DNA of 64,000 nt from an uncultured virus (IMG/VR IMGVR_UViG_3300035670_000036). Taxonomy: Duplodnaviria > Heunggongvirae > Uroviricota > Caudoviricetes. Positions 26,093 through 56,700 of the stretch are shown here, piece by piece. Location: IMG/VR virus record IMGVR_UViG_3300035670_000036. One strand, 5' to 3'. Positions within the stretch are counted from its first letter, which is position 1. Each line of letters begins with the position of its first letter. A program made the position numbers and the translations under genes. The notes under the pieces are model-generated. The model was given only the letters and a program-made list of their open reading frames with translations. It was not told where the DNA came from and made no database searches.

Positions 26093-26199
26093 GAATCCCC
26101 ACGGAAAATTAACAAAACATTAACGATAGGGGTATTGCATAATATATCCGATGCCCCTATCTTTGCACTATAATTATTCACCACTTAATATTTTAAATC

Positions 26200-26682
26200 A
26201 TGCACAGTCTTCATTTAGTTAGATTAAAAGCAGATTCTCATTCCGATGCTTATTCCATAGTAGAAGATTATCTATTCGATTGGGGTACAGAGAATAACTG
26301 GTTTACTATCCTGGGTTCTCATTGCAAAGAGGATAAATCATTTTCAGATTCTTTTGACGAGAAATTTGTGACTAAAGATGAATTGCTCAATAACCCTGAT
26401 AGATTTAATAGCCTAACAAATATATCTGATTACTACAAAGAGGCATTTGAAAAGGTAGCAAATTTTAAAGGTACTGTTTTAGTTGAACCTATAGATTGGC
26501 TTCTTGCATTAAATCATTGTAAGGAACAACATCAAATAGCCTTACTTTCAGACCCTAATAAAATTGATATATGGTCGGATACTTTCTATGATGGTTCAAT
26601 AGATGAAAATGGAATTACAGAGCTTTACACAGGTGCAGATAGTCAATTAACTTTTATTGTGTTGGTCGATATGCACTCGTAA
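26200..26682 (+). CDS. hypothetical acidic protein
   Basis: Hairpin promoter upstream and terminator downstream. Confidence 0.7.
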   Translation: MHSLHLVRLKADSHSDAYSIVEDYLFDWGTENNWFTILGSHCKEDKSFSDSFDEKFVTKDELLNNPDRFNSLTNISDYYKEAFEKVANFKGTVLVEPIDWLLALNHCKEQHQIALLSDPNKIDIWSDTFYDGSIDENGITELYTGADSQLTFIVLVDMHS

Positions 26683-26996
26683 ATAAAAACCCTCCTGGTT
26701 AATGCTAGGAGGGTTTTTTTATGGCCAGTGAATTTCGCTCTAGCAGAGCTTTGCTCTGCCTGAGTAAATTTTGGCGGGATCCCTTTTTAACATTTCCTTA
26801 ACTATACCAGGGAAAACATTAACACTCCCTTAACTACTTTGTATTGGTTTTATGCTTATCTTTGTAGTGTTATAAAGAGAGAGGGTAAATAGAAAGGCAG
26901 AAAAATAATTTAAAAAAAGTTTGCCTTAAATTTGGAAATTAGAAAAATACCTCTTATCTTTGCCAAAGATTCTTAACCACTTAACTTTTAAAAATT

Positions 26997-27704
26997 ATGT
27001 TAAAGCAAATTAATTTCAGATTAGGCGACGTTATCCACTGCATTGATATCAAGCCTAGCGCTACGCCTAAGCTCGCTCAAAAAGGCGAAATTATCCTACA
27101 AACTTATCATTTTTCCATTGACCAGATTAATGAAGGCAGCCTAAAAAATGATTCTAAGGTGTGTTTTGATTGTAAGTTTTCTTATAATGCAAACGGTGGA
27201 AAATCAGGCGGTTGCTATACCCATGCGAACGGATCCTTAGCTTGGGGATTGGTTGCAAAATTAAAGGCTCTAAAAAGGCGTTTGGATAACGGATTAATCC
27301 CGGAAGGAACGGAAGGCGTAATGGAACAAATTACGAGCGTTACAAAAAAGGTTAAAATATCCTTTGCTCGAATGGGAACGTATGGGGAGCCTACCTTATT
27401 ACCTTTTGAATTGCTAGAACAAATAAGGCCTTTGGTAGGCAAAGTATCAGGCTATACTCACCAATGGCATAAACCAGAGAATAAGCAATATGCGAAATAC
27501 TTAATGGCAAGTACGCATAATATCTTTGACGTAAAATTGGCCGAAGGTTTAGGATTCAGGTCTTACAATGCTAGCCAGGTGGAAGGTGCTATCCTTTGTC
27601 CATCAGCTCCAACCATAGCAAAGGAGAAGCAAGTAAGTTGTGCTAAATGTGGATTGTGTGAAGGTGGAAAGAAAGCTAAGAATATTTACAATGTAATCCA
27701 TTAA
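26997..27704 (+). CDS. Cys-rich phage protein (GP88-like), paralog of 21010
   Basis: CFDC...GGCY, RMGTYGE, GYTHQW, CAKCGLC. Confidence 0.65.
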   Translation: MLKQINFRLGDVIHCIDIKPSATPKLAQKGEIILQTYHFSIDQINEGSLKNDSKVCFDCKFSYNANGGKSGGCYTHANGSLAWGLVAKLKALKRRLDNGLIPEGTEGVMEQITSVTKKVKISFARMGTYGEPTLLPFELLEQIRPLVGKVSGYTHQWHKPENKQYAKYLMASTHNIFDVKLAEGLGFRSYNASQVEGAILCPSAPTIAKEKQVSCAKCGLCEGGKKAKNIYNVIH

Positions 27705-27789
27705 CATAATCTTAACATGGGGGGATTTGGTTTTCTCGAATATCCCCCCTATATTTGCATCATATTATTCATCACTTAAAAAACAAAAA

Positions 27790-28119
27790 ATGGATATACC
27801 ATCAGCAGAAGAATATTATTCAAAAACAATGTTCCCAGCTTTGTCTAAATATAAACCTGATGAAATTAAATTATGGTTTGAGACAAATACAGATGCACAA
27901 CAATCAGTAAACATAATGATTGAGTTCGCTAAACTTCATGTACAAGCAGCACTTGAATCTGCATACAAAAATTCTATAATGTATAAAGATTTAGGAGAAG
28001 GAGAAGATGGAAAAATATGTTATGAAATGGGAGATATTTTCTATGATGAATATGACTATCCCATAGCAATTAGTAAAAATTCTATTTTAGATGCTTATTC
28101 ACTCAAAAACATTAAATGA
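27790..28119 (+). CDS. hypothetical protein
   Basis: Leader then ATG at 27790. Confidence 0.6.
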   Translation: MDIPSAEEYYSKTMFPALSKYKPDEIKLWFETNTDAQQSVNIMIEFAKLHVQAALESAYKNSIMYKDLGEGEDGKICYEMGDIFYDEYDYPIAISKNSILDAYSLKNIK

Positions 28120-28415
28120 TATGAAAAGTAAATATGATAATATATTAAAGGCATACGAAAAGATACTAGGCATGGCAGAAGCTAAGTTACAAAATGCCAT
28201 TGACAAAAATAAAGAATGGGATATTGAACATTATAAAACTGATGTTCAAACGATAAAGAATGAAATTGAGTTCACAAATAATCTTAAAAAGAATGAACTT
28301 GAAATCAAAAAAAGTTAAATTAAATTAACAAAACATTAACGATAAGGGTATTGCATATTATATCCGATACCCTTATCTTTGCATCATAATTAATCACCAC
28401 TTAATATTTAAACTC

Positions 28416-28748
28416 ATGGCAATTTACGGAGATGGAAAGCACAATGAAAACATGGAACACATTGAGCAGCCAATTCAAATTTTTGATTTTTTCCTTGACC
28501 AAAAAATAACTACATGGATGCGCACCAGATTTTGTATCGAAGCGACATCAAGAGAAGAAGCGATAGAGAAAGCTAAGAAAGATTATGAGAAATTATGTGA
28601 GCAAGAAATTTGGGAGGAGATTCCAGACGTTCAAGAAACAATGACTGTAAGAGACAACGCTGGTTTTAGCACCGAAGAAGTTTACATAGATGAATTTCCT
28701 ACAATTAAGATTTGGGAGAATGGCATGGATTCATTAGCGGATTTTTAA
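28416..28748 (+). CDS. hypothetical protein
   Basis: Hairpin promoter and leader upstream. Confidence 0.7.
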   Translation: MAIYGDGKHNENMEHIEQPIQIFDFFLDQKITTWMRTRFCIEATSREEAIEKAKKDYEKLCEQEIWEEIPDVQETMTVRDNAGFSTEEVYIDEFPTIKIWENGMDSLADF

Positions 28749-28835
28749 CAAAACATTAACGATAGGGGTATTGCATAGTATATCCAATACCCTTATCTTT
28801 GCCACATATTAATCACCACTTAAAAAACAAAAGAC

Positions 28836-29183
28836 ATGAACAAAGAATTTGTAAGTTATGAAATGGCTTTAGCACTTAAACAGTTGGGGTTTGATGAACC
28901 TTGTTTAAGGTATTATGATTATTTTTCTAAATTAGTGGAATCTGGAGTTTATGAATGTAAAGCACCACTGTACCAACAAGTGTTTACATGGTTTAGAGAG
29001 AAGTATGATTTAGATTCCTACATAAAACCTGCTTGCTTAGAAACTAAAAAAGTATATGATTATTATATTTGGTTTAATAATAAAGAAGGTGAGAGAGATT
29101 TATTTCTAGGAATGAATAATGAATACACTTACAAAGAAGCGGAAATTGAATGTTTAAATAAATTAATCACCACTTTAAAATAA
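28836..29183 (+). CDS. dispersed member of the KEFV..E.AL.LK.LGFDEPC paralog family
   Basis: Same three conserved blocks as the 41216-44004 array. Confidence 0.8.
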   Translation: MNKEFVSYEMALALKQLGFDEPCLRYYDYFSKLVESGVYECKAPLYQQVFTWFREKYDLDSYIKPACLETKKVYDYYIWFNNKEGERDLFLGMNNEYTYKEAEIECLNKLITTLK

Positions 29184-29189
29184 AAAAAA

Positions 29190-29495
29190 ATGCACGTTTC
29201 AGAAAAAAATGTAGAAGGCACTTATTTCCATGGAGATACTATCAATGCTTCGGTTAAAGAGCTAACTAAAATTCTTGGTAAACCTACCTATGAAAATAAA
29301 TCAATAGTAGAGAAAATAAACTTTGAATGGGTTCTGGAAACTTCAAATGGGCACGTTGTTACTTTGTACACTTGGAAAGAATATAGAAGGTTTAAAAAGA
29401 GCGAGGTAGTTAACTTGCACATAGGAGGATTTAAAAAGTCAGCTACCTCAATAGCCAAAGGAGAACTAGAATTTTTGTTAAACTTAAAAAGATAA
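29190..29495 (+). CDS. hypothetical protein
   Basis: ORF in operon. Confidence 0.65.
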   Translation: MHVSEKNVEGTYFHGDTINASVKELTKILGKPTYENKSIVEKINFEWVLETSNGHVVTLYTWKEYRRFKKSEVVNLHIGGFKKSATSIAKGELEFLLNLKR

Positions 29496-29674
29496 TAACC
29501 ATGATAACTTTAAAGGAAATTTCAAGAAGGGATTTAGTAGAAGTTTTAGAATTATTACTTTCAGATGAGTTTGATTCATCAGAGCTTGTTTACTTGACCG
29601 AAGAAGAACTCATTAGGTCTATAATTACCGCAGCTATTTTCTACAAGGAAGCAGCTAACGATAAATAAAAAGTA

Positions 29675-29748
29675 AGTCAGGTGGCTCAATGGTAACGCAA
29701 TGAACAGGGAAGGCTGCATAGATACAGGTTCGAATCCTGTCCTGACTT
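29675..29748 (+). ncRNA. tRNA-like RNA 1 (non-canonical anticodon arm)
   Basis: AGTCAGG/CCTGACT acceptor; ACAGG-TTCGAAT-CCTGT T arm; bulged ATG-AA-CAG-GGAAGG-CTG-CAT arm. Confidence 0.7.
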
Positions 29749-30149
29749 CAAAAGGTTAATAGATGTTTAAGTGGTTTGGCTCCTGGCAGTAGATGTCGGG
29801 AGTTTTTTTGTTGCCAGTGAATTTCGCTCAAGGCAAGGCGAAGCCTTGCCTGAGTAAATTTTGCCCCTCCCCCTTTCCAGGATGGCCAGGGATCTATGGG
29901 GGAAAATCCAGGCGTTAACATTTTTTAACATTTCTTTAAGATCCTTTTAACATTTGAAATTAGGATATTAGATAGATTGGGTGTATCTTTGCAATGTCAA
30001 TTAGATGATAGGGAATAGATGAGATATGGTATGGGTTACATTTTACTACATTTCATTTTAACATGACTTTAACATTTTAGGATTAGGATATTAGATAGAA
30101 TGTTATTATCTTTGCGACATATTATTAACCACTTTAAATTTTTAGAATC

Positions 30150-30719
30150 ATGCCAAATTGGTGTTCAAATTGTATCTCATTTGAAGGTAATGAGAAAGCT
30201 ATGGAAACATTTAGAAAAGATGTTGCCAGTATTGAGGACGGTCATTGTATATTTACTGCATTGACTGATTTTAAAGAAGAATGGAGCTATGATGCTTGGT
30301 GTAATGAGTTTGGCACTAAATGGAGTGTAACGATGGACGATGACATTAGGAGTAACGTGAAAGAATGTGATTACTTTAATTGTGAAACGGCTTGGAGTCC
30401 ATGTACGGAATTTGTTAAGAAGGTATGTAAGAAGTACGGAATAGAAGGACGGATTGAATATACAGAAGGGGGGTGTGACATTGCAGGTATTGTTGAGATT
30501 GATGTAAATGGTGATGAAGTAAGTAGAAGAGATATGACTTATAATGAATATCAGTATGAAGAAGTACCTGAGAGTTTCTTCTATGATTTTATTATGAATG
30601 TTGAAGATGAATTGATTGAAAGTGAGGAGCAGATAAGAGAAGAATATTCATTTGTTACTGAGGAGGATATGTTAGAATTGATTGCATTGTTTAATGAGCA
30701 TGTCCCCTCGAAAAATTAA
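30150..30719 (+). CDS. DUF1281/YubB-like ferredoxin-fold protein
   Basis: MPNWCSN, WCNEFGTKW, ETAWSP, Y.E.G. Confidence 0.75.
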   Translation: MPNWCSNCISFEGNEKAMETFRKDVASIEDGHCIFTALTDFKEEWSYDAWCNEFGTKWSVTMDDDIRSNVKECDYFNCETAWSPCTEFVKKVCKKYGIEGRIEYTEGGCDIAGIVEIDVNGDEVSRRDMTYNEYQYEEVPESFFYDFIMNVEDELIESEEQIREEYSFVTEEDMLELIALFNEHVPSKN

Positions 30720-30805
30720 CATAATATTAACGCTAGGGGTATTGCGTAGTAAATTCAATACCCCTATCTTTGCACTAAATTAATCACCACTTTAAAACGA
30801 AAAAA

Positions 30806-31045
30806 ATGAGCGAAGTAGAAAAGGCAAAAGAAGTATTAAGAGCGCATGGTTACTTTGTAGATAACCTATGGCACAATGATGATGTACAATCATTACACAA
30901 AAGAGCTAGTGCGGAAGATGCCCAAAGGATATTAAATACGGCTCTTACCAACCAAGCTACCATGGAGCAGATATGGTATGCAATTACCGATGCTCTCGAG
31001 TTCGAGCAAGGGTATGTTCCCCTTTCAGACGAGGACGAAGATTAA
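30806..31045 (+). CDS. hypothetical protein
   Basis: Hairpin promoter and leader upstream. Confidence 0.7.
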   Translation: MSEVEKAKEVLRAHGYFVDNLWHNDDVQSLHKRASAEDAQRILNTALTNQATMEQIWYAITDALEFEQGYVPLSDEDED

Positions 31046-31130
31046 CATAATATTAACATGGGGGGATTTGGTTTTCTCAATTATCCCCCCTATATTTGCA
31101 CTATATTCTTTACCACTAAACTAAAAAAAA

Positions 31131-31853
31131 ATGGGCGACCAAAAAATTAAGATTGTAGAAGATTTTGTATGGCTATTGATTACCGACAAAGCTAAGGAAG
31201 TTTACCAGTCGGGTTTATTTGATGGTTCTATCTGTGCGCTACATGATGACGGTAGCGAGAGTTTATGTGAGACCTACGAAGACCTTACCGAAGCATTAGA
31301 GAGAGGTCTTGAAATCGGGATAGAAGTTGGTCATATAACCAAACCAGAGCCTAAGAAAATAGAATGGTATGATACCCTATACAATTTAGATGTTACGACC
31401 TTCAGGAACCTAGACCCTATCATGGAAGCTAAGACAGATGAGGAGTGGATTAAGGCAGGAGAACAGGGCATTCCAGCTTGGTGCTACTACGACAATGACC
31501 CAGCGAACAACGAACTATTTGGCAAGCTATATAATTGGTATGCGGTAAATGATAAGAGAGGACTTGCACCCGAAGGATTTAGAGTTCCAACCATAAAGGA
31601 GTTAGATGATTTATACATTAGTCCAGGTTATCCAGCGTCAGGGTGTCGTAATCATGCGAAAACTATTCATGGGAATTATCACACTCGTTTTGATAACATT
31701 AGGGAAATGGGTTTACTTTGGAGTTCTACGGAAGATGATATTGACAGAGAATTTGCTTGGTACAGCTACTTCACAAAACACCATGATAGTAATTCAGGCA
31801 TAGACGTAAATTATAAATCAATGGGTGCATCAGTTATCTGCATCAAAGATTAA
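31131..31853 (+). CDS. protein with a C-terminal Fibrobacter succinogenes major paralogous (FISUMP) domain
   Basis: NLDVTTFRN.DPI...WCYYDNDPAN...GKLYNWYAVNDKRGLAPEG.RVPT...WSST...G.SV.CIKD. Confidence 0.8.
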   Translation: MGDQKIKIVEDFVWLLITDKAKEVYQSGLFDGSICALHDDGSESLCETYEDLTEALERGLEIGIEVGHITKPEPKKIEWYDTLYNLDVTTFRNLDPIMEAKTDEEWIKAGEQGIPAWCYYDNDPANNELFGKLYNWYAVNDKRGLAPEGFRVPTIKELDDLYISPGYPASGCRNHAKTIHGNYHTRFDNIREMGLLWSSTEDDIDREFAWYSYFTKHHDSNSGIDVNYKSMGASVICIKD

Positions 31854-32236
31854 CAAAATATTAACATGGGGGGATTTGGTTTTCTTAATTATCCCCCTTA
31901 TATTTGCATCATATTATTCACCACTATAAAAAACAACATGAGAAATAGTAAGGAATGGATAGCTGTCTTAGATGGCAAAAGGATTGATTCTAATGGGTTC
32001 TATTGCAGTGAGTTCTTTCGTAGGACATGTGTTACCTCCTATAATAAGAAAGAAGCTATACGATTGCTCTCGAAGGCTAAGATGCATTACTTCGGTACTT
32101 ATAAGATTCCCAAGGAAGTTAGGATGAGAACAGACATCATTTCTAATTAACAAAACTTTAACATGAGGGGTATTGTATATATCATGTAAGCTCCTTATCT
32201 TTGTATCATATTATTAACCACTTTAAATTTTAAATC

Positions 32237-32467
32237 ATGCAGTTAGATAAAGTAATGTTGGATAAATTGGAATCTTGGTTTGAGACCTATAATCCTGATA
32301 GTATGTTATATGGATTTGATATAGATGAAGAGGATGAAGAGTTGATGTATAAGGATTATCAAGAGTTAATGGAGTTACTGGGGAGAGCTAAGAGGAATGA
32401 GTTAACGACAGATGATGTAGATGTTATAGCATTCCATTTAGATTGTATTGCAAATGATGAAGATTAA
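32237..32467 (+). CDS. hypothetical acidic protein
   Basis: Promoter and leader upstream. Confidence 0.65.
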   Translation: MQLDKVMLDKLESWFETYNPDSMLYGFDIDEEDEELMYKDYQELMELLGRAKRNELTTDDVDVIAFHLDCIANDED

Positions 32468-32498
32468 TTATTGTTCACCGCGAAAAACTTAAAAAAAA

Positions 32499-32780
32499 AT
32501 GTTAGTATTCAAGTATTTAGAAGATTTCTTACCAGGCAGACCTGTCGATGATTTTGTGTTCACAGTGTTTGATAAGCACAGCAATGAAGAACTTATATGG
32601 GATATACTAGATGTCCTTGACGAAATAAACAGAGATAGGACTGCGGATTGGATTGACTACACGAAAGATAATTGGTTTGATGGTTGGGTTTCATGGTGTG
32701 AGGATGATGCGTACACTATACTATCAATAGAGGATAGAGGAGATAAAGTGTATAGACCTTTCTTATCTATGCACATGTAG
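32499..32780 (+). CDS. hypothetical acidic protein
   Basis: ORF in operon. Confidence 0.65.
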   Translation: MLVFKYLEDFLPGRPVDDFVFTVFDKHSNEELIWDILDVLDEINRDRTADWIDYTKDNWFDGWVSWCEDDAYTILSIEDRGDKVYRPFLSMHM

Positions 32781-32787
32781 ATAAAAT

Positions 32788-32862
32788 AGCAAGGTAGCTC
32801 AGTGGTTTAGAACGGCCTTGGTTATTCGGGGTGCGACGCAGGTTCGATTCCTGCCCTTGCTG
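32788..32862 (+). ncRNA. tRNA-like RNA 2
   Basis: AGCAAGG/CCTTGCT; TAGCTCAGTGGTTTAGAAC D arm; GCCTTG-GTTATT-CGGGGT (6- or 8-nt loop); GCAGG-TTCGATT-CCTGC. Confidence 0.75.
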
Positions 32863-33067
32863 CTAAAAAAATAATAACATGGAACAGAAAGTATTAGATA
32901 TTTTAGAATTGGGGCATAAAGAAGATGGCACATTTTATTCTGACAAAGAGAAAACAGCCATGCTACTAAAATTAATTGAACAGGCATACGACGATGCTAT
33001 AAAGGGAATCTATATTTCCTTTGATTATAATGATGGTGCAGATTATGTGAAGTCAGTTTAATTACCT

Positions 33068-33195
33068 AGCAAGGTGGAGGAAGTATGGATAATTGAATAA
33101 GAAGCGTATTGAGTCAAGAAAGTGAAATTGAAGTAGCAAGTATTGTGGCACTCAATGTCAATTTGAAACCGCAGGTTCGAATCCTGCCCTTGTTA
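33068..33195 (+). ncRNA. tRNA-like RNA 3 with a long insert
   Basis: AGCAAGG/CCTTGTT; T arm GCAGGTTCGAATCCTGC; insert stems AATTGA/TCAATT and TATTGAGT/ACTCAATG. Confidence 0.7.
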
Positions 33196-33400
33196 CTAAA
33201 ATTGTAATTATGGAAATAGCAATAATTGTGGGATGGATATTTATGATATTGAGTTGGATAATACCACCTTTTATTAAAGATACACCTATTAAAGATGTAT
33301 CTAGCAGAAGATTTGTAGGATTAATTTTAGCAACATTTGCATTAGGTATTTTCTTAGGTCATGGATTATCTTTATTATTTTAGTTAATTTAAAATTAATT

Positions 33401-33533
33401 AGCAAGGTGGCGTAATTGGTAAACGCATATATGGTGTAAGTGAATCTAACTCGCGAGGTAGTTAAGCGAAGAATAAAGCACCAGATAGATGAAGTTACTT
33501 ATCATCATGCAGGTTCGATTCCTGTCCTTGCTA
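33401..33533 (+). ncRNA. tRNA-like RNA 4 (Leu-type D arm, expanded anticodon arm, variable arm)
   Basis: AGCAAGG/CCTTGCT; GCG-TAATTGGTAAA-CGC; TGGTG...CACCA enclosing a TAACT/AGTTA hairpin; GATGA/TCATC variable stem. Confidence 0.75.
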
Positions 33534-46653: not shown

Positions 46654-46917
46654 ATGAGTAGTTTCGATTATCAAGGTTTAACGCCTAAAAGAGTATTTCC
46701 GGAGTCTATGGATGAAAGTCTCATTGGAAGAAAAGTAATGTATAAAGAAGAATGGAATAATGTCAATGTTCAATATGAGCATGGTACCATCACTTCATTT
46801 AATGAGAGATATGTTTTTATTGATTTTAGAGGTAATGGATTTGGGCAAGCGTGTAAATATCATAATGTCTTGTTAGCCCCCACGAGTATTGCCCCTCACA
46901 TTTGTACACTACCTTAA
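46654..46917 (+). CDS. hypothetical SH3-like protein
   Basis: IGRKVMY...EHG.ITSFNERYVFIDF. Confidence 0.55.
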   Translation: MSSFDYQGLTPKRVFPESMDESLIGRKVMYKEEWNNVNVQYEHGTITSFNERYVFIDFRGNGFGQACKYHNVLLAPTSIAPHICTLP

Positions 46918-46931
46918 TTAAATCTTATATC

Positions 46932-47576
46932 ATGTTGTATGTTAGTATTGATATTGAAACAAGTGGGTTGAATCCTAATAAAGATCAAATCCTATCATTT
47001 GGGGCAATTATTGAAGATACAAGTAAAATGTTATCATTTGAAGATTGTCCTAAGTTCTATGCTACTGTTATTCATAGACGTATTAAAGGATCTCCGGAGG
47101 CATTATCGATGAATATGGATCTTGTTCAGGACATTTCAGATTATTTAGAAAATGAAAGTAATGATGCATTAAATAATGTTGTAGGTAATTGGAATCCTAT
47201 TTTTGTTGAGACTTTTACATTAACTGCATGTTTTACATCTTTTCTAGATGCTAATGGAATTAAAGCTAATTCTAGGTATGGTAGATTTAAGATAAATGTA
47301 GCTGGAAAGAATTTTGCTGCATTTGACATGTTATTCTTAAATAATGTTCCTGGATGGGGTGGATTTATTGATGTTCATAAAAGAGTGTTGGACCCCGCAA
47401 TTTTATATTTTGATTTGGTAAGAGATTCCGAGTTACCGTCTTTAGATATATGTAAGATGAGAGCTAAGATTGATGGGGATGTTAGTCATAATGCTTTATT
47501 AGATGCATGGGATGTTATTCAATTAATAAGACATAAATTTGATATGACTCACAGCGGAAAATTAACATATTATTAA
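46932..47576 (+). CDS. DEDDh 3'-5' exonuclease (DnaQ/oligoribonuclease-like)
   Basis: IDIETSG, AGKNFAAFD, HNALLDA. Confidence 0.88.
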   Translation: MLYVSIDIETSGLNPNKDQILSFGAIIEDTSKMLSFEDCPKFYATVIHRRIKGSPEALSMNMDLVQDISDYLENESNDALNNVVGNWNPIFVETFTLTACFTSFLDANGIKANSRYGRFKINVAGKNFAAFDMLFLNNVPGWGGFIDVHKRVLDPAILYFDLVRDSELPSLDICKMRAKIDGDVSHNALLDAWDVIQLIRHKFDMTHSGKLTYY

Positions 47577-47628
47577 CAAAGTAGGTATTGTTTTTGTGGA
47601 AGAACATACTTATATTTGCATTGTAATT

Positions 47629-47754
47629 AGTCAGATGGCGAAACAAGGGCAGTGCTGATAAAGCTGATTCCTGATGGTAGACGCTAGCGTTGTAAAGGTA
47701 GAATGATAAATAGATTACGCTTCATTCGTACAGGTTCGAGTCCTGTTCTGACCA
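47629..47754 (+). ncRNA. tRNA-like RNA 5 (D-loop and anticodon-loop inserts), just downstream of a TATATTTG promoter box
   Basis: (A)GTCAGA/TCTGAC(C); GCG...GGTAGACGC with a ~30-nt insert; AGCGT-N26-ACGCT; ACAGG-TTCGAGT-CCTGT. Confidence 0.75.
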
Positions 47755-47832
47755 CGATGTCTAGGTAGCGCCTAGATGAACTTAGGGCGGTAACGGGCTA
47801 GCCTAAGAGAGATTGAAAAAAAGCCCGTACAT

Positions 47833-47945
47833 GGTCAGGTGGTGTAATGGTAACATTGTGGTGAATTTCGAAATATACAACTATTTCTAGACCATCCAGA
47901 CACGTGCGGGGCGTGTTGTTGCAGGTTCGAATCCTGCCCTGACCA
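47833..47945 (+). ncRNA. tRNA-like RNA 6
   Basis: GGTCAGG/CCTGACC; GTGT-AATGGTA-ACAT; GTGGT-N28-ACCAT; variable stem GACACG/CGTGTT; canonical T arm. Confidence 0.78.
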
Positions 47946-48170
47946 CAATGAGTAAGAGATACTCAGTAGACTTGTCAATGTCTCATTTAAACTTGGTAGG
48001 GTATTGGACTGGACATCCTTAAACGCCAGTCTCGTAGGAATAAAGGGAAAGCACAATCCCTCCTAGTAGTGTGATTTTAGATTTCATGTGGTAAGACACT
48101 AATGGTTAGAGTTTTTAAGAAAACAAAACCGTTAAAATCTACTCACCAGTAATCTCATGGTGAGGAAAAT

Positions 48171-48249
48171 GGTCAGGTGGGCGTAATGAGGAAGGGTTTC
48201 CGAGTCCAGTAAAACGGTTGCTTATCCGGTTCAAGTCCGGCCCTGACCA
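48171..48249 (+). ncRNA. tRNA-like RNA 7
   Basis: GGTCAGG/CCTGACC; CCGG-TTCAAGT-CCGG; enlarged D arm; AGTAA-AACGG-TTGCT (5-nt loop). Confidence 0.65.
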
Positions 48250-48398
48250 CAAAAAGCCCTCTGCCTAGCGCTGGGTATGGATCGAAGATAGAGATTACAG
48301 ATATGCGACTTATACTCGTGTATTGGCGTGGACGCTCTCCGAATCGTAGGTCGGCATAGTTTGTGTGTTCTAGGGGTATTACAAAAACACTCATTTTT

Positions 48399-48492
48399 AG
48401 AAAGGTGGCGAAAATGGATAAACGTAAGGACAGCGTAATAGCTTATAAAAAGGTCTCCGAAAAAGTTGCAGGTTCAAATCCTGTCCTTTCTA
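48399..48492 (+). ncRNA. tRNA-like RNA 8
   Basis: AGAAAGG/CCTTTCT; GCG-AAAATGGATAAA-CGT; enlarged anticodon loop; GCAGG-TTCAAAT-CCTGT. Confidence 0.7.
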
Positions 48493-48543
48493 CATTTTAT
48501 ATCTTTTAAAAAACTTTTTTACACACACTTAAAATTTATTTTT

Positions 48544-48930
48544 ATGGAAACAAACTTCAAGATTGCCAAATTTGTAAGAAATGACAATTCATTCGAAAAG
48601 ACCGGGTATGATGAATATTCAATTACATATTTAAAGGGAGTTAAGGTTCATGAATTGAGAATTGTTGTAAATGGATATTTAACTAAACAAACAATAAACA
48701 TAATTGATTTTAGTTCAGGATATAAAAACAAAATATTAGTTGGTATTAAAGAATATCTTGAAAATGGTAAAGATAGTAAAAATAAAGTCACTAAAAAGGT
48801 AACACTGTATTACTTAGAAACTTTTTATTCAAAAAAGATAATTCATAATGTTAAATCATTTTTATTGCCTATTAATAAAGAAGAGTCAAGAGATAAATTA
48901 ACAGAGCTTGGGTTAATAAATTTTGCATAA
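48544..48930 (+). CDS. hypothetical protein (start METNF)
   Basis: CACTTAAA leader before the ATG. Confidence 0.65.
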   Translation: METNFKIAKFVRNDNSFEKTGYDEYSITYLKGVKVHELRIVVNGYLTKQTINIIDFSSGYKNKILVGIKEYLENGKDSKNKVTKKVTLYYLETFYSKKIIHNVKSFLLPINKEESRDKLTELGLINFA

Positions 48931-48976
48931 TGTTTGCGAATAATTTTAATCCGGCTCTCATTAAAAAACAAAAATT

Positions 48977-49222
48977 ATGACAACAGTAGAGAAAATGATT
49001 CATATTAAAAAGCTAGTAGAAGAAGTGGAATCAGAAGTACGGGAAACGGCTAGACATATAGAAGATGTTGATTGGCCGCTTTACAGAATGCTTACAGAAG
49101 GATGCGCCGACCGGTTTAAGGATATATCTAAAAACCTATCAACAGGATATACAATTGAAAGTTGGGAGAAGCAATTGTGGCAGGCTTATAAGTTAATTTG
49201 GCCAAATTCGGTAAAACTTTAA
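48977..49222 (+). CDS. hypothetical protein
   Basis: ORF. Confidence 0.6.
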   Translation: MTTVEKMIHIKKLVEEVESEVRETARHIEDVDWPLYRMLTEGCADRFKDISKNLSTGYTIESWEKQLWQAYKLIWPNSVKL

Positions 49223-49572
49223 ATGATTAAAAATGAATAGTATACTAATATGTATTTCACTACAATTTGTTTTGTTTACACCATTTTATTTAATTTGGAG
49301 AAACGACTGTAAAGAAATAGGTAAAGAAAAGTTAGCAGTAAGTTTAACTGAAAGGTTTATTTCTTGGGTATTATTTTGCCCAATTTGGATCATTCCATTT
49401 ATTCGTTAAATTCCTTCCTTCATACAAATTTAAAAATAATAGATCATGAAAACATTGTTTGAAATTTATAGAAAACAAGCATCTATTGCTTATAATTACC
49501 CATCAGTTAAATTGTGCTCAGATGGTGATGTAATAAATTATTTGAGAAGTATTAAGTTATAAGAACTAATAT

Positions 49573-49715
49573 AGCAAGGTGGCGGAATTGGTAGACGCTT
49601 AAAACATGATAAGGTTGACGTGGTGTAAATAGTCGAAGAGTTTATCCTTCACATTCTAACGAATCCATTTATGTTATACAGTTCAACTTTGCAGGTTCGA
49701 ATCCTGCCCTTGCTA
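49573..49715 (+). ncRNA. tRNA-like RNA 9 with a long anticodon-arm insert
   Basis: AGCAAGG/CCTTGCT; TGGCGGAATTGGTAGACGC (Leu-type); AACATGA...TTATGTT enclosing ~60 nt; canonical T arm. Confidence 0.78.
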
Positions 49716-49730
49716 CAAAATAAATAAGCT

Positions 49731-49982
49731 ATGAGACAATTTGAAAAAAATGAATGGAGTCATTTACATGACGTTGTATTAAGTGCAACATGGGATAAAT
49801 CCAAAAAATTATCCCAGTCTGAATTGGAGGATTTATTTGAAGAGTTTCCTGAACATATCAAAGAAGATGCGTATAAACATGGATTAAATAATTCAGTAGT
49901 TAGTGATACTATTTACGTTTGGATTGAGAAAAATAATATACAAGAACGTGAACAGGATTTACTAACAAGTTATGGTAGATAA
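49731..49982 (+). CDS. hypothetical protein
   Basis: ORF between two tRNA-like RNAs. Confidence 0.6.
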   Translation: MRQFEKNEWSHLHDVVLSATWDKSKKLSQSELEDLFEEFPEHIKEDAYKHGLNNSVVSDTIYVWIEKNNIQEREQDLLTSYGR

Positions 49983-49988
49983 CAGATT

Positions 49989-50232
49989 AGCAAGGTGGCG
50001 GAATGTTCAAACAACCCCGTTCTAGTCGGAAAAATAATGTGGTTCGAATCCACTACGGGGTTAATGTTTGAACTTGGTAGACGCTTAAGGGTTGGATAGA
50101 TGTTGCAACGTAAAACAGAGAAAATAACCTAACAAATCATACACTGACAGTTGTAATTGTAAGTTTACTGTAGCAGAATACAGTCTTTACAGCTGAAAAT
50201 CTATCGTGCAGGTTCGAATCCTGTCCTTGCTA
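49989..50232 (+). ncRNA. tRNA-like RNA 10 (244 nt) with a nested T-loop helix in the D loop
   Basis: AGCAAGG/CCTTGCT; the D loop is split by GTTCAAACA...TGTTTGAAC; large downstream insert GATAGAT...ATCTATC. Confidence 0.75.
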
Positions 50233-50294
50233 CGCAAAAAACATAAGATGGAGTTTCCTTACCTTGTAAAAGATGGGTTTTAGAAATCTTAACT

Positions 50295-50371
50295 AGTCAG
50301 GTGGCAGATTGGTATGCAACTCTCGGTGTAAACAAAAGGGTGATAAGCAGGTTCGATTCCTGTCCTGACTA
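50295..50371 (+). ncRNA. tRNA-like RNA 11 (13-nt anticodon loop)
   Basis: AGTCAGG/CCTGACT; GCA-GATTGGTA-TGC; ACTCT-CGGTGTAAACAAA-AGGGT; GCAGG-TTCGATT-CCTGT. Confidence 0.78.
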
Positions 50372-50391
50372 CAAATTTCAAAACAATTATC

Positions 50392-50631
50392 ATGAATATA
50401 GTGTATTGGACAACAAAAGACAAGCGTAAAATAAATATAGATGAAATGTCTATTGATCATTTGCGTAACATAGTAAAAATGATTGTAAAACAAAGTCAAG
50501 ATTTTCAAAACACATGTCCTCATAATGTAGATGATGCAATATCATTAGAAATAGAGGAAGGTGAATCTTTTTTTGAAAAACTACGTTCTACAAAATATGA
50601 GGACATGTCTTGGGGAGATTTAGAATTTTAA
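50392..50631 (+). CDS. hypothetical protein
   Basis: WTTKD.R.I.I..MS..HL.N motif. Confidence 0.65.
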   Translation: MNIVYWTTKDKRKINIDEMSIDHLRNIVKMIVKQSQDFQNTCPHNVDDAISLEIEEGESFFEKLRSTKYEDMSWGDLEF

Positions 50632-50905
50632 ATGACATAAAAAAATTATGAGCTTCTTGATGTCAGGAAGATGTTATTTGACCAAAAAAATTAATGCATG
50701 AAATCATTTAGAGAAATTTTATTCTTCTTAGGAGTAACGGAGAAGATTGTAAATGAAAGAGGCTATGAAAAATATAGGCTTAATCGTTATAATCCTCTAT
50801 CCTATATTCTAATCATTCTCGTTTTTGTTGTGGGAATTACCTTGTATGGTGTAATAGGATTTTGGAAAGAAATTGATTTACGTAACCCTTTTAAATACCA
50901 ATAAT

Positions 50906-51307
50906 ATGAATAAAACACTCTTTTTATTAAGAGGATTGCCGGGTTCAGGTAAAACAACTTTGGCAAATCAATTAGGCGGATCTCTAGTTGAAGCCGACAG
51001 ATATTTTATGGAATATGGTGAGTATAAGTTTGATGCTTCTAAATTGAAAGAGGCTCATGCTTGGTGCAGGAATCAGGTTAAAGAGTGGATGGAAACCAAT
51101 GATAGAGGATTTGATGTCCCCAGGATTGTTGTTTCCAATACCTTTACACAAGAATGGGAAATGAAACCTTACTTTGATTTGGCAAAAGAACATGGTTATA
51201 CGGTCTTTTCATTAATTGTAGAAAATAGACATGGAGGTAAAAATGTTCATGATTGCCCGGAAGAAACTATAGCAAAGATGAGAGAAAGATTTGAAATTAC
51301 ATTATAA
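50906..51307 (+). CDS. P-loop kinase (AAA_33/polynucleotide-kinase-like)
   Basis: LRGLPGSGKTT, EADRYF, AH.WC, VSNTFTQEWE. Confidence 0.85.
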   Translation: MNKTLFLLRGLPGSGKTTLANQLGGSLVEADRYFMEYGEYKFDASKLKEAHAWCRNQVKEWMETNDRGFDVPRIVVSNTFTQEWEMKPYFDLAKEHGYTVFSLIVENRHGGKNVHDCPEETIAKMRERFEITL

Positions 51308-52614: not shown

Positions 52615-53379
52615 ATGAAAAGTGTAATTATTGGAGACATTCATGGTAGAATATCATGGGAGAAAATTGTTGAAAAAGAAAATGATGCAGATAGATTTAT
52701 ATTTGTAGGAGATTACTTTGATACACATGAAAATATAAGAATTATAGTTCAATTACATAATTTTAAACGTTTGATTGACTTTAAGAATGAGTCAAAAGCA
52801 GATGTTATTATGTTAATTGGTAATCATGACTTTCATTACATGCCTTTTGCTAATGAGACGTATTCAGGACATCAGAGAGGACATCATCATACTATTCAGA
52901 CGTTATTGATGGAAAATATAAATGAGTTATCTATGTGTTATAAGATGGATAATTATTTATTTAGTCATGCGGGAGTTAGTTCTGAATGGTTAGAGTACTG
53001 GGGAAGTAGGATGAAGGTAAATATGAAGGATGCTGTTGATGTTATTGTTAATGATTTATTTATTGGTTCTCCCCGCGCTTTTAAATTTGCCGGATGGGAC
53101 CCTTATGGAGACAGTGCCGAATCTTCTCCTATATGGATCCGGCCTAAGTCATTACAGGAATCTAACTATGATACCTTCCGGAAAGAATACATCCAGGTTG
53201 TAGGCCATACACAACAAAAGAAAATAGATATTAATGGGCACACTACGGGAGGAAGGTATTACTACATTGACACTCTAGGTACTAGCCAGGAATATCTAAT
53301 TATCGAAGACGGTAAAGTTAGCGTAGGTCAATTATCGGATGATTTTACTTCATATCAATCTTCTTCAAAAGAAATTTAG
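52615..53379 (+). CDS. calcineurin-like metallophosphoesterase
   Basis: GDIHG, GDYFD, GNHD, SHAG, VGHT. Confidence 0.92.
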   Translation: MKSVIIGDIHGRISWEKIVEKENDADRFIFVGDYFDTHENIRIIVQLHNFKRLIDFKNESKADVIMLIGNHDFHYMPFANETYSGHQRGHHHTIQTLLMENINELSMCYKMDNYLFSHAGVSSEWLEYWGSRMKVNMKDAVDVIVNDLFIGSPRAFKFAGWDPYGDSAESSPIWIRPKSLQESNYDTFRKEYIQVVGHTQQKKIDINGHTTGGRYYYIDTLGTSQEYLIIEDGKVSVGQLSDDFTSYQSSSKEI

Positions 53380-55569: not shown

Positions 55570-56700
55570 ATGAAAAATGAAAACAGTGTTTGTTTCGTGT
55601 CCGTGATAAATGATATTCAATCTATTCCGGATGCTGACAATATAGAACTAGCTGTTATAAATGGCTGGCAATGTGTTGTAAAAAAAGGTTCTCACTCAAT
55701 TGGAGATTTAGTTATCTGCGCTACTACAGATGCTATGATACCTTTAGAAATTTCAGAGAAATTAGGTATCACTAATTATCTCCGTAACAAAGAAAGAGTT
55801 AGGACAATTAAGCTAAGAAGTGTTTACAGTGAATGCTTGATAATGCCGATTGATTTGATTCCGGAAAATAAGAGGAAAAAATGGGAGGATGTAATGGATA
55901 TTCTTAAAATATCTAAGTATGAACCTGCGGTTAAAATGATTAGATTAGCCAATGGTAAAAAAAGAAAATACCATGAAAATCCTAATTTCCCTATTTACTA
56001 CAAATTCCCTAATTTTAAAAATGTTCCTAATATTTTTGATGAAAATGATTATGTCGAAATTACTAGGAAAATACATGGAACAAATGCAAGATACGGGATT
56101 GTTAAGAAAAATAAGCTATCTCTGTGGATTAAAATTAAAAAATTCTTTGGTTTTGAGACAGGTTGGGATGAATATGAATTCGTGGTAGGTTCTCATAACG
56201 TAGAAAAAGGATCTGATAGTCAAGGTTTCTATGATACTAATGTTTGGTATGATATTGAGAAAAAATATGATATTAAAAATAAGCTCTGGAATCTTGTTAA
56301 GAAAAATTTTGGTGGTTATTCTCGCATGAGCTCTGGTTTTATAATCTACGGCGAAATATATGGGAAAGGAATCCAGAAAAACTATGAGTATGGATTAGAT
56401 GATATACAGCTATGTATTTTCGATATTGAATTAGATAAAAAGTATTTCAATTTGTCCGCAGCTCAATATATGACTGAAGAATATTTAAATCTACCCTACG
56501 TTGAAGTCTTATATAAAGGACTTTATTCAGAGGAAGTAAGAAATTCATTCGTGTTCAATAATTTTATAAACAACACTAAAGTTCCTCACGAAGGTATTGT
56601 TATAAAAGCTGTTGATGGAAATAGATCGAAAGTAGCTAAAGTAATAAACCCGGATTACTTAATATACAGCGAAAAAAATAATGTCGGGGATTCACATTAA
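55570..56700 (+). CDS. ATP-dependent RNA ligase (DRB0094/Rnl2-like) with an N-terminal OB-like module
   Basis: IPDADNIELA.INGWQCVVKKG; motif I KIHGTN; YGEIYG.GIQK; FDI; EGIVIK; K.INPDYL. Confidence 0.9.
   Translation: MKNENSVCFVSVINDIQSIPDADNIELAVINGWQCVVKKGSHSIGDLVICATTDAMIPLEISEKLGITNYLRNKERVRTIKLRSVYSECLIMPIDLIPENKRKKWEDVMDILKISKYEPAVKMIRLANGKKRKYHENPNFPIYYKFPNFKNVPNIFDENDYVEITRKIHGTNARYGIVKKNKLSLWIKIKKFFGFETGWDEYEFVVGSHNVEKGSDSQGFYDTNVWYDIEKKYDIKNKLWNLVKKNFGGYSRMSSGFIIYGEIYGKGIQKNYEYGLDDIQLCIFDIELDKKYFNLSAAQYMTEEYLNLPYVEVLYKGLYSEEVRNSFVFNNFINNTKVPHEGIVIKAVDGNRSKVAKVINPDYLIYSEKNNVGDSH

What the first reader, a model, noticed from the sequence alone, without database searches (positions are those of the whole stretch)
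49989..50232. tRNA-like helix nested inside the D loop of a tRNA-like RNA
Seen: the D arm GGCGGAATTGGTAGACGC is intact in the neighbour at 49573. Here a 70-nt insert (50005-50074) splits it, closed by a perfect 9-bp stem GTTCAAACA/TGTTTGAAC. Inside are a second acceptor-like stem ACCCCGT/ACGGGGT and a T-loop hairpin GTGG-TTCGAATC-CCAC. The anticodon/variable region carries another insert of about 120 nt with stems GATAGAT/ATCTATC, CAGTTGTAA/TTACAGCTG and ACTGTA/TACAGT. RNA 5 (47629) also has a hairpin inserted at the same D-loop position. Inference: the scaffolds accept modules at defined loops, possibly presenting two T loops.
Basis: partly seen in the sequence, partly recalled or inferred. 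Interest (0 to 1): 0.75.

Follow-up and report, generated by a model that had tools for sequence, protein, structure and literature searches.

The report
Mini tRNA-like module inside phage RNA
A freshwater phage makes a tRNA-shaped RNA that cannot read codons and carries a small conserved tRNA-like hairpin module in its D loop; the same module turns up in many other phage sequences, sometimes as a stand-alone gene, and its job is still unknown.

Summary
Window 49989-50232 (+) has a tRNA-Leu-type acceptor stem, D stem, G18G19 and T arm. A 70-nt insert (50005-50074) splits the D loop, and a 123-nt structured domain replaces the anticodon and variable region. It is one of 11 such tRNA-framed RNAs in the window.

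The D-loop insert is not a one-off or an assembly error. I found 41 distinct versions in viral, metagenome and one MAG contig. Of these, 31 sit at the same D-loop site of frames with different acceptor stems and central domains. Five stand alone in slots of ordinary tRNA gene arrays. All three of its helices are kept, and the closing and inner helices show compensatory changes.

The base form of this RNA (110-113 nt) occurs in other phages without either insert. A relative has the D module but lacks the 53-nt hairpin 50143-50195. That hairpin is a DNA-level indel.

Neither ARAGORN nor the Rfam tRNA model calls it a tRNA. I found no evidence of splicing, but the data could not have shown it.

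Best reading: a non-decoding, modular tRNA-derived scaffold RNA of a probable Bacteroidota phage. Function is unknown. The closest precedents are the Lak-phage tRNA "introns" that may themselves encode a tRNA, and T4 RNAC/RNAD.

The parts
49989..50232 (+). Whole tRNA-framed RNA, 244 nt; A at 50232 is the discriminator and no CCA is encoded
   Evidence: ARAGORN makes no call here. The Rfam tRNA model does not hit it at E<=10; there is only a partial tRNA-Sec match of 20.2 bits at 50153-50230.
49989..49995 (+). Acceptor stem 5' strand AGCAAGG, pairing with 50225-50231
   Evidence: 7 of 7 pairs. In 9 homologues, 3 of 7 pairs carry changes on both sides.
49998..50004 (+). D stem 5' strand (GCG, 49998-50000) and the 5' part of the D loop (G AAT) up to the insertion point
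   Evidence: Compared with the uninterrupted D arm of the neighbour at 49573.
50005..50074 (+). D-loop insert, the conserved T-loop minihelix module. Closing helix 50005-50013/50065-50073; inner 7-bp stem 50014-50020/50055-50061; 18-nt linker 50021-50038; T hairpin 50039-50053; 3-nt bulge TAA 50062-50064
   Evidence: There are 41 distinct versions. The closing helix covaries (4 of 9 pairs). Inner-stem pair 1 is AU 34, UA 4, CG 2. Inner-stem pair 4 is CG 34, UA 6, UG 1.
50074..50084 (+). 3' part of the D loop, TTGGTAGA with G18G19, and D stem 3' strand CGC (50082-50084)
50085..50207 (+). Central domain replacing the anticodon arm and variable region. Stem A is GGGTT 50089-50093 with AACCT 50126-50130, at the anticodon-stem position. 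Stem B is 50095-50101 with 50199-50205, and A plus B form an H-type pseudoknot. The palindrome GTTGCAAC lies at 50102-50109
   Evidence: Stem B has 2 pairs with GC<->AU changes on both sides among 9 homologues. Stem A is invariant.
50143..50195 (+). 53-nt branched hairpin, outer stem 50148-50156/50187-50195 and inner stem 50167-50172/50179-50184. It is a strain-level insertion in a loop of the pseudoknot
   Evidence: Absent from G001 and from L314. The joint 50142->50196 appears in a DNA contig of X3 and in a contig of X15.
50208..50232 (+). Outer T arm GCAGG-TTCGAAT-CCTGT, acceptor 3' strand CCTTGCT, and discriminator A
   Evidence: In 9 homologues, 4 of 5 T-stem pairs covary.
49573..49715 (+). 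Neighbouring paralogue, 143 nt, with the same frame, an intact D loop and a different central domain
   Evidence: Its homologue L046 shows compensatory changes.
47629..47754 (+). Paralogue with a 32-nt hairpin insert at the same D-loop site
   Evidence: The L290 variant changes CAG/CTG to TAG/CTA.

Best explanation
This is a non-decoding, tRNA-derived scaffold RNA of an uncultured freshwater phage. The genome is roughly 150 kb and the host is probably in the Bacteroidota.

SHOWN:
- The RNA keeps every element that gives a tRNA its L shape: a 7-bp acceptor stem, a tRNA-Leu-type D stem and G18G19, a T arm, and discriminator A.
- It has no anticodon loop. A helix sits at the anticodon-stem position. 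Its 30-plus-nt loop pairs with the stretch just before the T stem, forming a pseudoknot.
- Two accessory modules have been added in loops. One is a 70-nt module in the variable part of the D loop, just 5' of G18G19. The other is a 53-nt hairpin in a pseudoknot loop.
- Natural variants exist with both modules, with the D module only, and with neither.
- The D-loop module is a conserved unit in its own right. It has a closing helix, a 3-nt YAA bulge, a 7-bp acceptor-like stem, a fixed 18-nt linker and a T-loop hairpin. It also occurs free-standing in slots of ordinary tRNA gene arrays.

INFERRED:
- The tRNA frame lets the RNA fold, be trimmed and survive like a tRNA, as in engineered tRNA scaffolds.
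- The inserts stay in the mature RNA as displayed domains.
- The D-loop site is used because residues 16/17 point away from the elbow, so a helix there need not break the D-loop/T-loop contact.
- The module's 7 + 5 stacked pairs capped by a T loop copy the acceptor/T-arm half of a tRNA. The whole RNA would therefore offer two tRNA-like heads to tRNA-binding factors.
- My guess for its use is mimicry or titration of host tRNA-binding enzymes or tRNA-directed defence nucleases. That step is speculation.
For: Frame and loss of the anticodon:
- ARAGORN without introns calls nothing for the full RNA, for versions with the inserts removed in silico, or for three base-form relatives: 0 of 6.
- The Rfam tRNA model misses it.

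Family:
- There are 11 such RNAs in the window.
- Of 48 matches to the T-arm/acceptor pattern in 45 viral loci, 32 lie in RNAs of 87-191 nt with highly variable centres.

Module conservation and structure:
- In the first scan, 15 of 18 hits were nested, 2 were free-standing and 1 was an ordinary tRNA.
- In a scan that fixed no stem base, 21 of 30 hits were modules.
- Of 53 distinct metagenome hits, 38 were modules.
- The union is 41 distinct versions: 31 nested, 8 not nested and 2 cut off.
- Pair counts on 13 sequences: 91.5% of cells paired against 85.0% in shuffles (0 of 500 reach it), and 38-45% when the partners are slid.
- RNAalifold predicts the same three helices by itself.

Indel series and pseudoknot covariation.

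Independent assemblies, and the hairpin as a DNA indel.

Free-standing copy: one fills a slot between canonical tRNAs scoring 71 and 57 bits (L059).

Host and habitat:
- The Bacteroidota-type promoter pattern occurs 19 times against 5.08 expected; 0 of 100 shuffles reach it. The consensus itself is recalled.
- The single genome hit is a 4.3-kb contig binned with a Saprospiraceae MAG.
- Fourteen DNA runs hold at least half of the sampled words; all listed holders together come from 12 studies of freshwater, subsurface, pond and wastewater samples.
Against: - No data here show that the RNA is made, where its ends lie, or that the inserts stay in it. The RNA-library runs were available only as contigs and may contain DNA.
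- Function is pure inference.
- The inner and T stems of the module are nearly invariant. Part of that reflects search patterns that fixed bases in them. The stem-free scan fixed linker and loop bases instead.
- With its intron option, ARAGORN calls the three base-form relatives tRNA-Pro(TGG) with a 28-31-nt intron at the canonical place.
- An RNA ligase, a PNK-like kinase and a phosphoesterase gene lie within 6 kb. A cut-and-rejoin pathway is therefore not excluded.
Confidence: 0.6

Rival explanations
1. Nested gene. The D-loop module is an independent small RNA that host tRNA-processing enzymes cut out of the scaffold. RNase P would cut at the 5' side of the acceptor-like stem, and a 3' endonuclease would cut after the base that follows it. 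This would leave a split scaffold plus a roughly 50-nt mini tRNA-like RNA.
For: - The same module stands alone in tRNA arrays, where flanking tRNA processing would free it (L059, L069, L340, L439, L458).
- Its inner stem plus T stem stack to 7 + 4 pairs plus a U-U. That matches the 12-pair acceptor/T-arm ruler that RNase P is known to measure (established knowledge, not tested here).
- A conserved unpaired YAA follows the stem: CAA in 28 and TAA in 11 of 41 versions.
Against: - In all nested copies the would-be 5' leader is base-paired to the trailer by a conserved, covarying 6-9-bp helix. That argues for a retained rod rather than a cleavage substrate.
- The free-standing copies keep that helix too.
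- No read ends could be examined.
Confidence: 0.15
2. Intron-bearing tRNA or tRNA-like gene. The D-loop insert, and part of the central domain, are intervening sequences that are removed and the halves rejoined, possibly by the phage's own RNA-repair enzymes.
For: - Variants with and without each insert exist.
- ARAGORN with introns calls tRNA-Pro(TGG) in 3 of 3 base-form relatives.
- RNA ligase (55570-56700), an AAA_33 kinase (50873-51307) and a metallophosphoesterase (52615-53379) are encoded nearby.
- Lak phages have tRNA genes with unexplained introns (PMC6784885, passages read).
Against: - ARAGORN's intron mode also of 490 frames whose centres were shuffled, against 48 of 49 real ones.
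- For the window RNA it gives other anticodons, Val or Ser, and once splits the anticodon itself.
- The supposed intron pairs with the supposed exon through the covarying stem B.
- Rfam finds no group I or group II intron or ribozyme match at E<=10.
- No bulge-helix-bulge can be drawn at the insert borders (by eye).
- The with/without variants are DNA variants.
- Removing both inserts still leaves no tRNA by ARAGORN's default mode.
Confidence: 0.12
3. Decaying tRNA pseudogene that has been invaded by selfish hairpin elements and has no function of its own.
For: - The inserts are gained and lost between close relatives.
- The conserved frames act as recombination points. All 8 joints with at least 30 nt on both sides have an end in, or within 6 nt of, one of the 7 tRNA-like RNAs.
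Against: - Compensatory changes keep the acceptor, T, closing, inner and pseudoknot helices across distant contigs.
- The module's 18-nt linker has one fixed length in all 41 versions and invariant bases in the aligned subset.
- The 53-nt hairpin is not a repeated element. Of 56 distinct hits to its 16-mer, 55 were chance matches in coding DNA and 1 (L397) is a similar hairpin.
- There is no second copy of either insert in the window.
Confidence: 0.05
4. A working tRNA with expansion segments that is charged and used in translation.
For: - Discriminator A and a tRNA-Leu-type D loop are kept. E. coli LeuRS is known not to read the anticodon (recalled).
- One relative, L253, is a credible tRNA-Leu(UAA) with 21 extra D-loop bases. 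It scores 48.8 bits on the Rfam tRNA model.
Against: - There is no 7-nt anticodon loop, and the loop is tied up in a pseudoknot.
- The RNA is 244 nt long.
- The insert changes the spacing before G18G19.
Confidence: 0.03

Closest known systems
tRNA genes with 'enigmatic introns' in Lak megaphages of Prevotella (Devoto et al. 2019, PMC6784885; passages read)
   Same: - A phage of a Bacteroidota host.
[quoted passage not shown]
- Copies with and without the insert.
- No match to known intron classes.
   Different: - There the insert is placed in the anticodon loop of genes read as real tRNAs. Here it is in the D loop of an RNA without an anticodon.
- Here the nested unit is only an acceptor/T-arm minihelix.
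- Here it recurs in many contigs and also stands alone.
- No DNA similarity to any record of the phage collection. I did not check whether Lak genomes are in that collection.
Phage T4 RNAC and RNAD, small RNAs of the tRNA gene region (PMC3014915 and PMC9697503; passages read)
   Same: - Stable small RNAs encoded among phage tRNA genes.
- Function unknown.
   Different: - Their tRNA-like ends are my recollection, not a result here.
- No sequence similarity.
- No nested module has been described for them.
Engineered tRNA scaffold for expressing RNA inserts (Ponchon and Dardel; recalled, not read here)
   Same: A tRNA body is kept, and the anticodon region is replaced by a foreign structured RNA that is thereby folded, processed and stabilised.
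   Different: - That is an artificial construct with one insert.
- Here the RNA is natural, has two insertion sites, and belongs to a diversified gene family.
tRNA-like domain of tmRNA (established knowledge)
   Same: An acceptor stem plus T arm joined by an unpaired D-loop analogue, without a D stem or anticodon arm, like the nested module.
   Different: - ARAGORN finds no tmRNA.
- There is no tag reading frame.
- The module has no free 3' end when nested.
- There is no G3-U70 pair.
YrlA-type Y RNAs (Rfam RF02553)
   Same: A non-decoding RNA with a tRNA-like domain, known from bacteria and some phages.
   Different: - No YrlA match in the window at the gathering score, or at E<=10 in 47400-50500.
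- In YrlA the RNA ends lie in the Ro-binding stem (recalled), not in the acceptor stem.
tRNA-like candidate structured RNAs in IMG/VR (Fremin et al. 2023, PMC10690425; passages read)
   Same: [quoted passage not shown]
   Different: - It names five motifs that overlap ARAGORN calls.
- The passages I read do not describe D-loop inserts or anticodon-less frames.
- I did not see its supplementary tables, and they could hold this motif.

Membership tests
Canonical decoding tRNA | 7-bp acceptor stem, T arm with T loop, D stem with G18G19 | tested here: met
   Covariation in homologues is shown.
Canonical decoding tRNA | Anticodon stem closing a 7-nt loop; total length about 70-95 nt; recognised by tRNA finders | tested here: not met
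   The RNA is 244 nt. ARAGORN makes no call. The Rfam tRNA model makes no hit at E<=10. The loop at that position exceeds 30 nt and is part of a pseudoknot.
tRNA with a group I or other self-splicing intron | Match to an intron or ribozyme covariance model inside the insert | tested here: not met
   Rfam 15 at E<=10 gives only chance-level matches for the region and for the module alone. The inserts are 70 and 53 nt.
tRNA with an archaeal-type intron | Bulge-helix-bulge at both exon-intron borders | tested here: not met
   By eye. There is only one 3-nt bulge (50062-50064), on one strand, and no 4-bp helix between two bulges. No program was run for this.
Any intron-bearing tRNA | RNA molecules with the insert removed | not testable with these tools
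   Only contigs of RNA-library runs were on hand. The with/without forms seen are also DNA forms.
tmRNA | tRNA-Ala-like ends plus a tag reading frame | tested here: not met
   ARAGORN finds no tmRNA in the window. Rfam finds no tmRNA hit.
YrlA / Y RNA | Match to RF02553 | tested here: not met
   No hit.
Phage tRNA-framed scaffold RNAs (the family defined here) | tRNA-Leu-type frame (acceptor, GGCGRAAT..GGTARACGC D arm, T arm, A73) around a non-anticodon centre | tested here: met
Phage tRNA-framed scaffold RNAs (the family defined here) | Expression as a stable RNA | not testable with these tools
   Contigs cannot show expression.
Lak-phage type nested tRNA-like insert | Insert with a tRNA-like fold inside a tRNA-framed gene, polymorphic among relatives | tested here: met
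Lak-phage type nested tRNA-like insert | Insert in the anticodon loop of a gene with a readable anticodon | tested here: not met
   The insert is in the D loop and there is no anticodon.

The most novel reading that the evidence does not exclude
The 66-70-nt T-loop minihelix is a small-RNA gene of its own. It is a stripped-down tRNA mimic that some phages carry as a separate gene in their tRNA arrays. This lineage has nested it in the D loop of scaffold RNAs. Two outcomes are possible. One transcript may yield two tRNA-like products through host RNase P and 3' processing, giving an RNA gene within an RNA gene. Alternatively it may form a two-headed tRNA mimic that engages two tRNA-binding sites at once, for example to jam a tRNA-directed defence enzyme.
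Probability: 0.18. Interest if true: 0.85.

Novelty: new variant of a known kind. Interest (0 to 1): 0.66.

Why it matters
Phage genomes hold many RNAs that look like tRNAs but cannot decode, and nobody knows what they do. This case gives the problem a handle.

- It provides a short, sharply conserved module with a defined structure.
- The module has a fixed insertion site at the tRNA elbow.
- It comes in natural with/without variants and in stand-alone copies.
- That makes direct tests possible: which host or phage protein binds it, whether RNase P cuts it, and whether it protects against tRNA-cleaving defences.
- It shows that a tRNA frame can tolerate a whole extra helix in the D loop. This is of use for RNA design.
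- The repeated frames also appear to serve as break points for swapping gene cassettes between related phages.

Tried and rejected
- The phage record collection gave no match at blastn sensitivity. The window's own assembly is not held.
- The sigma-70 promoter and terminator scan of 47400-50700 found no more sites than shuffles do.
- The RNA-library contigs (X15, X16, X18) could show neither expression, nor ends, nor splicing. Parts without cover mean nothing. Seven of the 15 listed joints have under 30 nt on one side. They probably come from other RNAs that share only the frame, and I do not count them.
- ARAGORN's intron mode is not evidence. It called 20 of 50 full sequences and 48 of 50 after the D insert was removed. 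It also called 377 of 490 versions with shuffled centres.
- The scan for the 53-nt hairpin's 16-mer gave 67 loci and 56 distinct contexts. Fifty-five are chance matches in coding DNA and one (L397) is a similar hairpin. The hairpin is therefore not a spread mobile element.
- Pairing between the linker UCUAG and the T loop UUAGA was considered and dropped. UCCAG occurs with UUAGA and UCUAG with UUCGA, so the pairs do not covary.
- A K-turn at the YAA bulge was considered and dropped, because no G-A pairs follow the bulge (by eye).
- A target-site duplication was considered. AATGTT flanks the insert on both sides only where the closing helix is itself a palindrome, and the free-standing copies lack it.
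- L074 is a tRNA-Arg(UCU)-like gene sharing the 20-mer of the module's T arm and 3' strand. This could be ancestry or chance and was not resolved.
- Four paper searches found no description of a D-loop-nested T-loop module. The library lacks most subscription journals.

Full report
**What is there.** Window 49989-50232 (+ strand) reads as a tRNA frame with two large interruptions.
- The frame consists of acceptor stem AGCAAGG/CCTTGCT, discriminator A at 50232, a tRNA-Leu-type D stem with TTGGTAGA (G18G19), and T arm GCAGG-TTCGAAT-CCTGT.
- The neighbour at 49573 has the same D arm uninterrupted, as GGCGGAATTGGTAGACGC.
- In the target, 70 nt (50005-50074) lie between AAT and TGG of that loop.
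- The insert has a perfect 9-bp closing helix and a 7-bp stem ACCCCGT/ACGGGGT.
- It continues with an 18-nt linker, a T-loop hairpin GTGG-TTCGAAT-CCAC, and an unpaired TAA.
- The region between the D stem and the T stem is 123 nt instead of an anticodon arm.
- The MFE fold gives these helices: -65.4 kcal/mol, z = -2.80, and 1 of 200 shuffles folds as well.
- No ORF of 40 aa or more on the + strand overlaps the RNA.

**It is not called a tRNA.**
- ARAGORN finds three genes in the window, none of them here.
- Rfam at gathering score finds four tRNA matches, none here.
- At E<=10 only a partial tRNA-Sec match of 20.2 bits (gathering score 47) covers the 3' end.
- The module alone matches no Rfam family beyond chance.

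**It is one of a family.**
- The T-loop motif GGTTCRANYCC occurs 12 times in the window, all on the + strand, against 0.23 expected.
- Eleven occurrences close tRNA-type frames of 74-244 nt, in two clusters at 29675-33533 and 47629-50371. The twelfth is the nested hairpin.
- The frames share two or three acceptor types. Their centres are unrelated to one another.
- A scan of viral contigs with the T-arm/acceptor pattern gave 48 matches in 45 loci. Thirty-two lie in RNAs of 87-191 nt with the same D arm and very different centres. Four lie in RNAs of 71-74 nt. For the other 12, my script found no 5' strand.

**The D-loop insert is a conserved module.**
- A 20-nt pattern from its T loop and 3' strand hit 18 viral loci. 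Fifteen are nested at the same D-loop point, in frames with other acceptor stems (AGTCAGG, GGTAAGG, AACAGAG) and other centres. Two are free-standing between tRNA genes. One is an ordinary-looking tRNA.
- A second scan fixed only linker and loop bases, not stems. It gave 30 loci, of which 21 are modules and 9 are chance matches.
- A metagenome scan gave 53 distinct hits. Thirty-eight are modules, all with an 18-nt linker, and 15 are chance matches.
- A scan of 185,579 species' genomes gave one hit. It is a 4.3-kb contig binned with a Saprospiraceae MAG, and it is a fragment of a G001-like phage.
- Pooled, there are 41 distinct versions: 31 nested, 8 not nested and 2 cut by a contig end.
- Five of the non-nested copies sit in tRNA arrays with a closing helix AATACGAA/TTCGTATT.
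- In L059 the module fills positions 362-435, between canonical tRNAs at 288-361 (71.3 bits) and 439-509 (56.5 bits).

**The module's structure is supported by covariation.**
- On 13 sequences, 91.5% of cells pair. Shuffles average 85.0% and 0 of 500 reach the observed value. Sliding the partners gives 38-45%.
- Four of the 9 closing-helix pairs change on both sides.
- RNAalifold by itself returns the same three helices.
- In the pooled 41, inner-stem pair 1 is AU 34, UA 4, CG 2 and CA 1. Pair 4 is CG 34, UA 6 and UG 1. Pair 6 is GC 39 and GU 2.
- All 4 T-stem pairs are kept, with one GU and one UG.
- G-U pairs outnumber C-A mismatches by 7 to 2, as expected for an RNA read from the + strand.
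- Caveat: the search patterns fixed some stem bases, so the invariance of the inner and T stems is partly built in. The 5' strand of the inner stem was free in the first scan, and both stems were free.

**The site accepts other modules too.**
- Two scans looked for anything of 10-71 nt between TGGCGRAA and GGTARACGC.
- I required a T arm downstream and at least 6 of 7 acceptor pairs. That left 51 frames with 47 distinct inserts of 13-71 nt. The rest were dropped as chance matches.
- The inserts include a recurrent GG-stem-TGT-stem-CGT hairpin, a GNRA hairpin (L245), and a second kind of T-loop hairpin insert (L154).
- They also include the 32-nt hairpin of the window's RNA at 47629. Its L290 variant changes CAG/CTG to TAG/CTA.
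- One relative, L253, looks like a real tRNA-Leu(UAA) with 21 extra D-loop bases. It scores 48.8 bits.

**The central domain and the indel series.**
- The centre (TTAAGGGTT...) recurs in 110-113-nt RNAs that have an ordinary D loop (L316, L319, L331, L337, L325-L327).
- In alignment A2 the D module and the 53-nt hairpin appear as two clean insertions. The base form has neither, G001 has the first, and the window has both.
- A helix sits at the anticodon-stem position (GGGTT/AACCT, invariant). Its large loop pairs with the bases just before the T stem. That pairing is stem B, GATAGAT/ATCTATC here and GGTGGAT/ATCCACC elsewhere, and two of its pairs change on both sides.
- In the same set, 3 of 7 acceptor pairs and 4 of 5 T-stem pairs covary. 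Overall 96.3% of cells pair, and 0 of 500 shuffles reach that.
- The loop holds an 8-nt palindrome that stays a palindrome when it changes: GTTGCAAC against GTCGCGAC.

**Independent assemblies and variants.**
- A DNA contig from another study (X3, pond) covers 49841-50142 with one difference. The D insert is therefore not an assembly chimera.
- The joint 50142->50196 (53 nt skipped) is seen in X3 DNA and in X15, and the hairpin is absent from G001 and L314. It is a DNA-level indel.
- One X15 contig joins 49587 to 50074, with 15 nt shared. This is a variant in which the same centre follows an uninterrupted D loop.
- An X16 contig has the D module followed by a different centre.
- All 8 joints with at least 30 nt on both sides have an end in, or within 6 nt of, one of the 7 tRNA-like RNAs. 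Those RNAs make up 876 of the 2901 nt laid. The conserved frames thus look like break points for cassette exchange.
- None of this shows RNA processing. The runs were contigs and may hold DNA.

**Testing the intron idea.**
- ARAGORN in default mode calls nothing for the full RNA, for the RNA with one or both inserts removed in silico, or for three base forms: 0 of 6.
- With introns allowed it calls the three base forms tRNA-Pro(TGG) with a 28-31-nt intron. For the window RNA it calls Val or Ser, once splitting the anticodon.
- That mode is very permissive. It called 48 of 49 real frames and 377 of 490 frames with shuffled centres.
- The supposed intron pairs with the supposed exon in stem B.
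- RNA-repair-type genes do lie nearby: an RNase T-like exonuclease (46902-47576), an AAA_33 kinase (50873-51307), a metallophosphoesterase (52615-53379) and an RNA ligase (55570-56700). Cutting and rejoining is therefore not excluded.

**Who carries it.**
- G001 shares 23% of the window's words, is 59 kb long and is rated 39% complete. That implies a genome near 150 kb.
- Fourteen DNA runs hold at least half of the sampled words. All listed holders together come from 12 studies of freshwater, subsurface, pond and wastewater samples.
- The pattern TTTG-N17-23-TANNTTTG is, by my recollection, the Bacteroidota promoter consensus. It occurs 19 times against 5.08 +/- 2.36 expected, and 0 of 100 shuffles reach it.

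**Comparison with what is known.**
- Devoto et al. 2019 (PMC6784885, passages read) report Lak-phage tRNAs with 'enigmatic introns'. One of these 'itself may encode a tRNA', with copies lacking it. This is the nearest precedent. It is placed in the anticodon loop of genes read as tRNAs.
- T4 RNAC and RNAD are small RNAs of the tRNA region with unknown roles (PMC3014915 and PMC9697503, passages read).
- Fremin et al. 2023 (PMC10690425, passages read) list tRNA-like candidates in IMG/VR without this architecture. I did not see its supplements.
- Four paper searches found no description of a T-loop minihelix nested in a D loop.
- Earlier notes of this scan report anticodon-less tRNA scaffolds in other large phages. 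I used them as leads only.

**Verdict.** The RNA is best seen as a non-decoding tRNA-derived scaffold carrying a conserved accessory module, which is a new variant of a known kind. What the module binds, and whether it is cut out, remain open.

Noticed in passing
window 47946-48170 and 48250-48398: Two ORF-poor stretches lie between the tRNA-like RNAs. The stretch 48320-48398 recurs almost unchanged just upstream of module-bearing RNAs in L061, L065 and L072. More non-coding RNAs may lie here.
   Followed up: no
window 20945-31906: A near-identical 32-nt promoter-like element, of the form TTTGG...TATCTTTG, is repeated at least 12 times on the + strand before small genes.
   Followed up: partly
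window 46902-47576, 50873-51307, 52615-53379, 55570-56700: An RNase T-like exonuclease, an AAA_33 (PNK-like) kinase, a metallophosphoesterase and an RNA ligase with a PHA02142 OB domain flank the RNA cluster. This is an RNA-repair-type gene set.
   Followed up: no
window 50102-50109; L325-L327: An 8-nt palindrome in the pseudoknot loop changes from GTTGCAAC to GTCGCGAC and stays self-complementary. This could be a loop-loop dimerisation site.
   Followed up: no
window 29675-33533: A second cluster of four tRNA-framed RNAs lies at 29675, 32788, 33068 and 33401. The one at 32788 is called 'tRNA-???' by ARAGORN, with a 2-nt anticodon.
   Followed up: no
window 50295-50371: ARAGORN calls this tRNA-Tyr(GTA). 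The Rfam alignment instead shows a 13-nt loop on a weak anticodon stem (35.9 bits). It is probably another non-canonical member of the family.
   Followed up: partly
L253 (294-396), L245, L154: Other phages carry D-loop inserts in GC-richer frames. L253 is a credible tRNA-Leu(UAA) with 21 extra bases, L245 has a GNRA hairpin, and L154 has a different T-loop hairpin insert.
   Followed up: partly
window 49573-49715 and L046: The neighbour RNA's central domain is conserved in L046 with compensatory changes, GAAG/CTTC against GGAG/CTCC. It is a separate structured domain type.
   Followed up: no
window 47550-50450: Contigs of related phages break and rejoin at the conserved tRNA frames. Whole ORF cassettes between frames differ between the window and G001.
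   Followed up: partly
L397: A hairpin with the same outer stem as the 53-nt insert (CAGTTGTAA...TTTACAACTG) occurs in an unrelated-looking contig.
   Followed up: no
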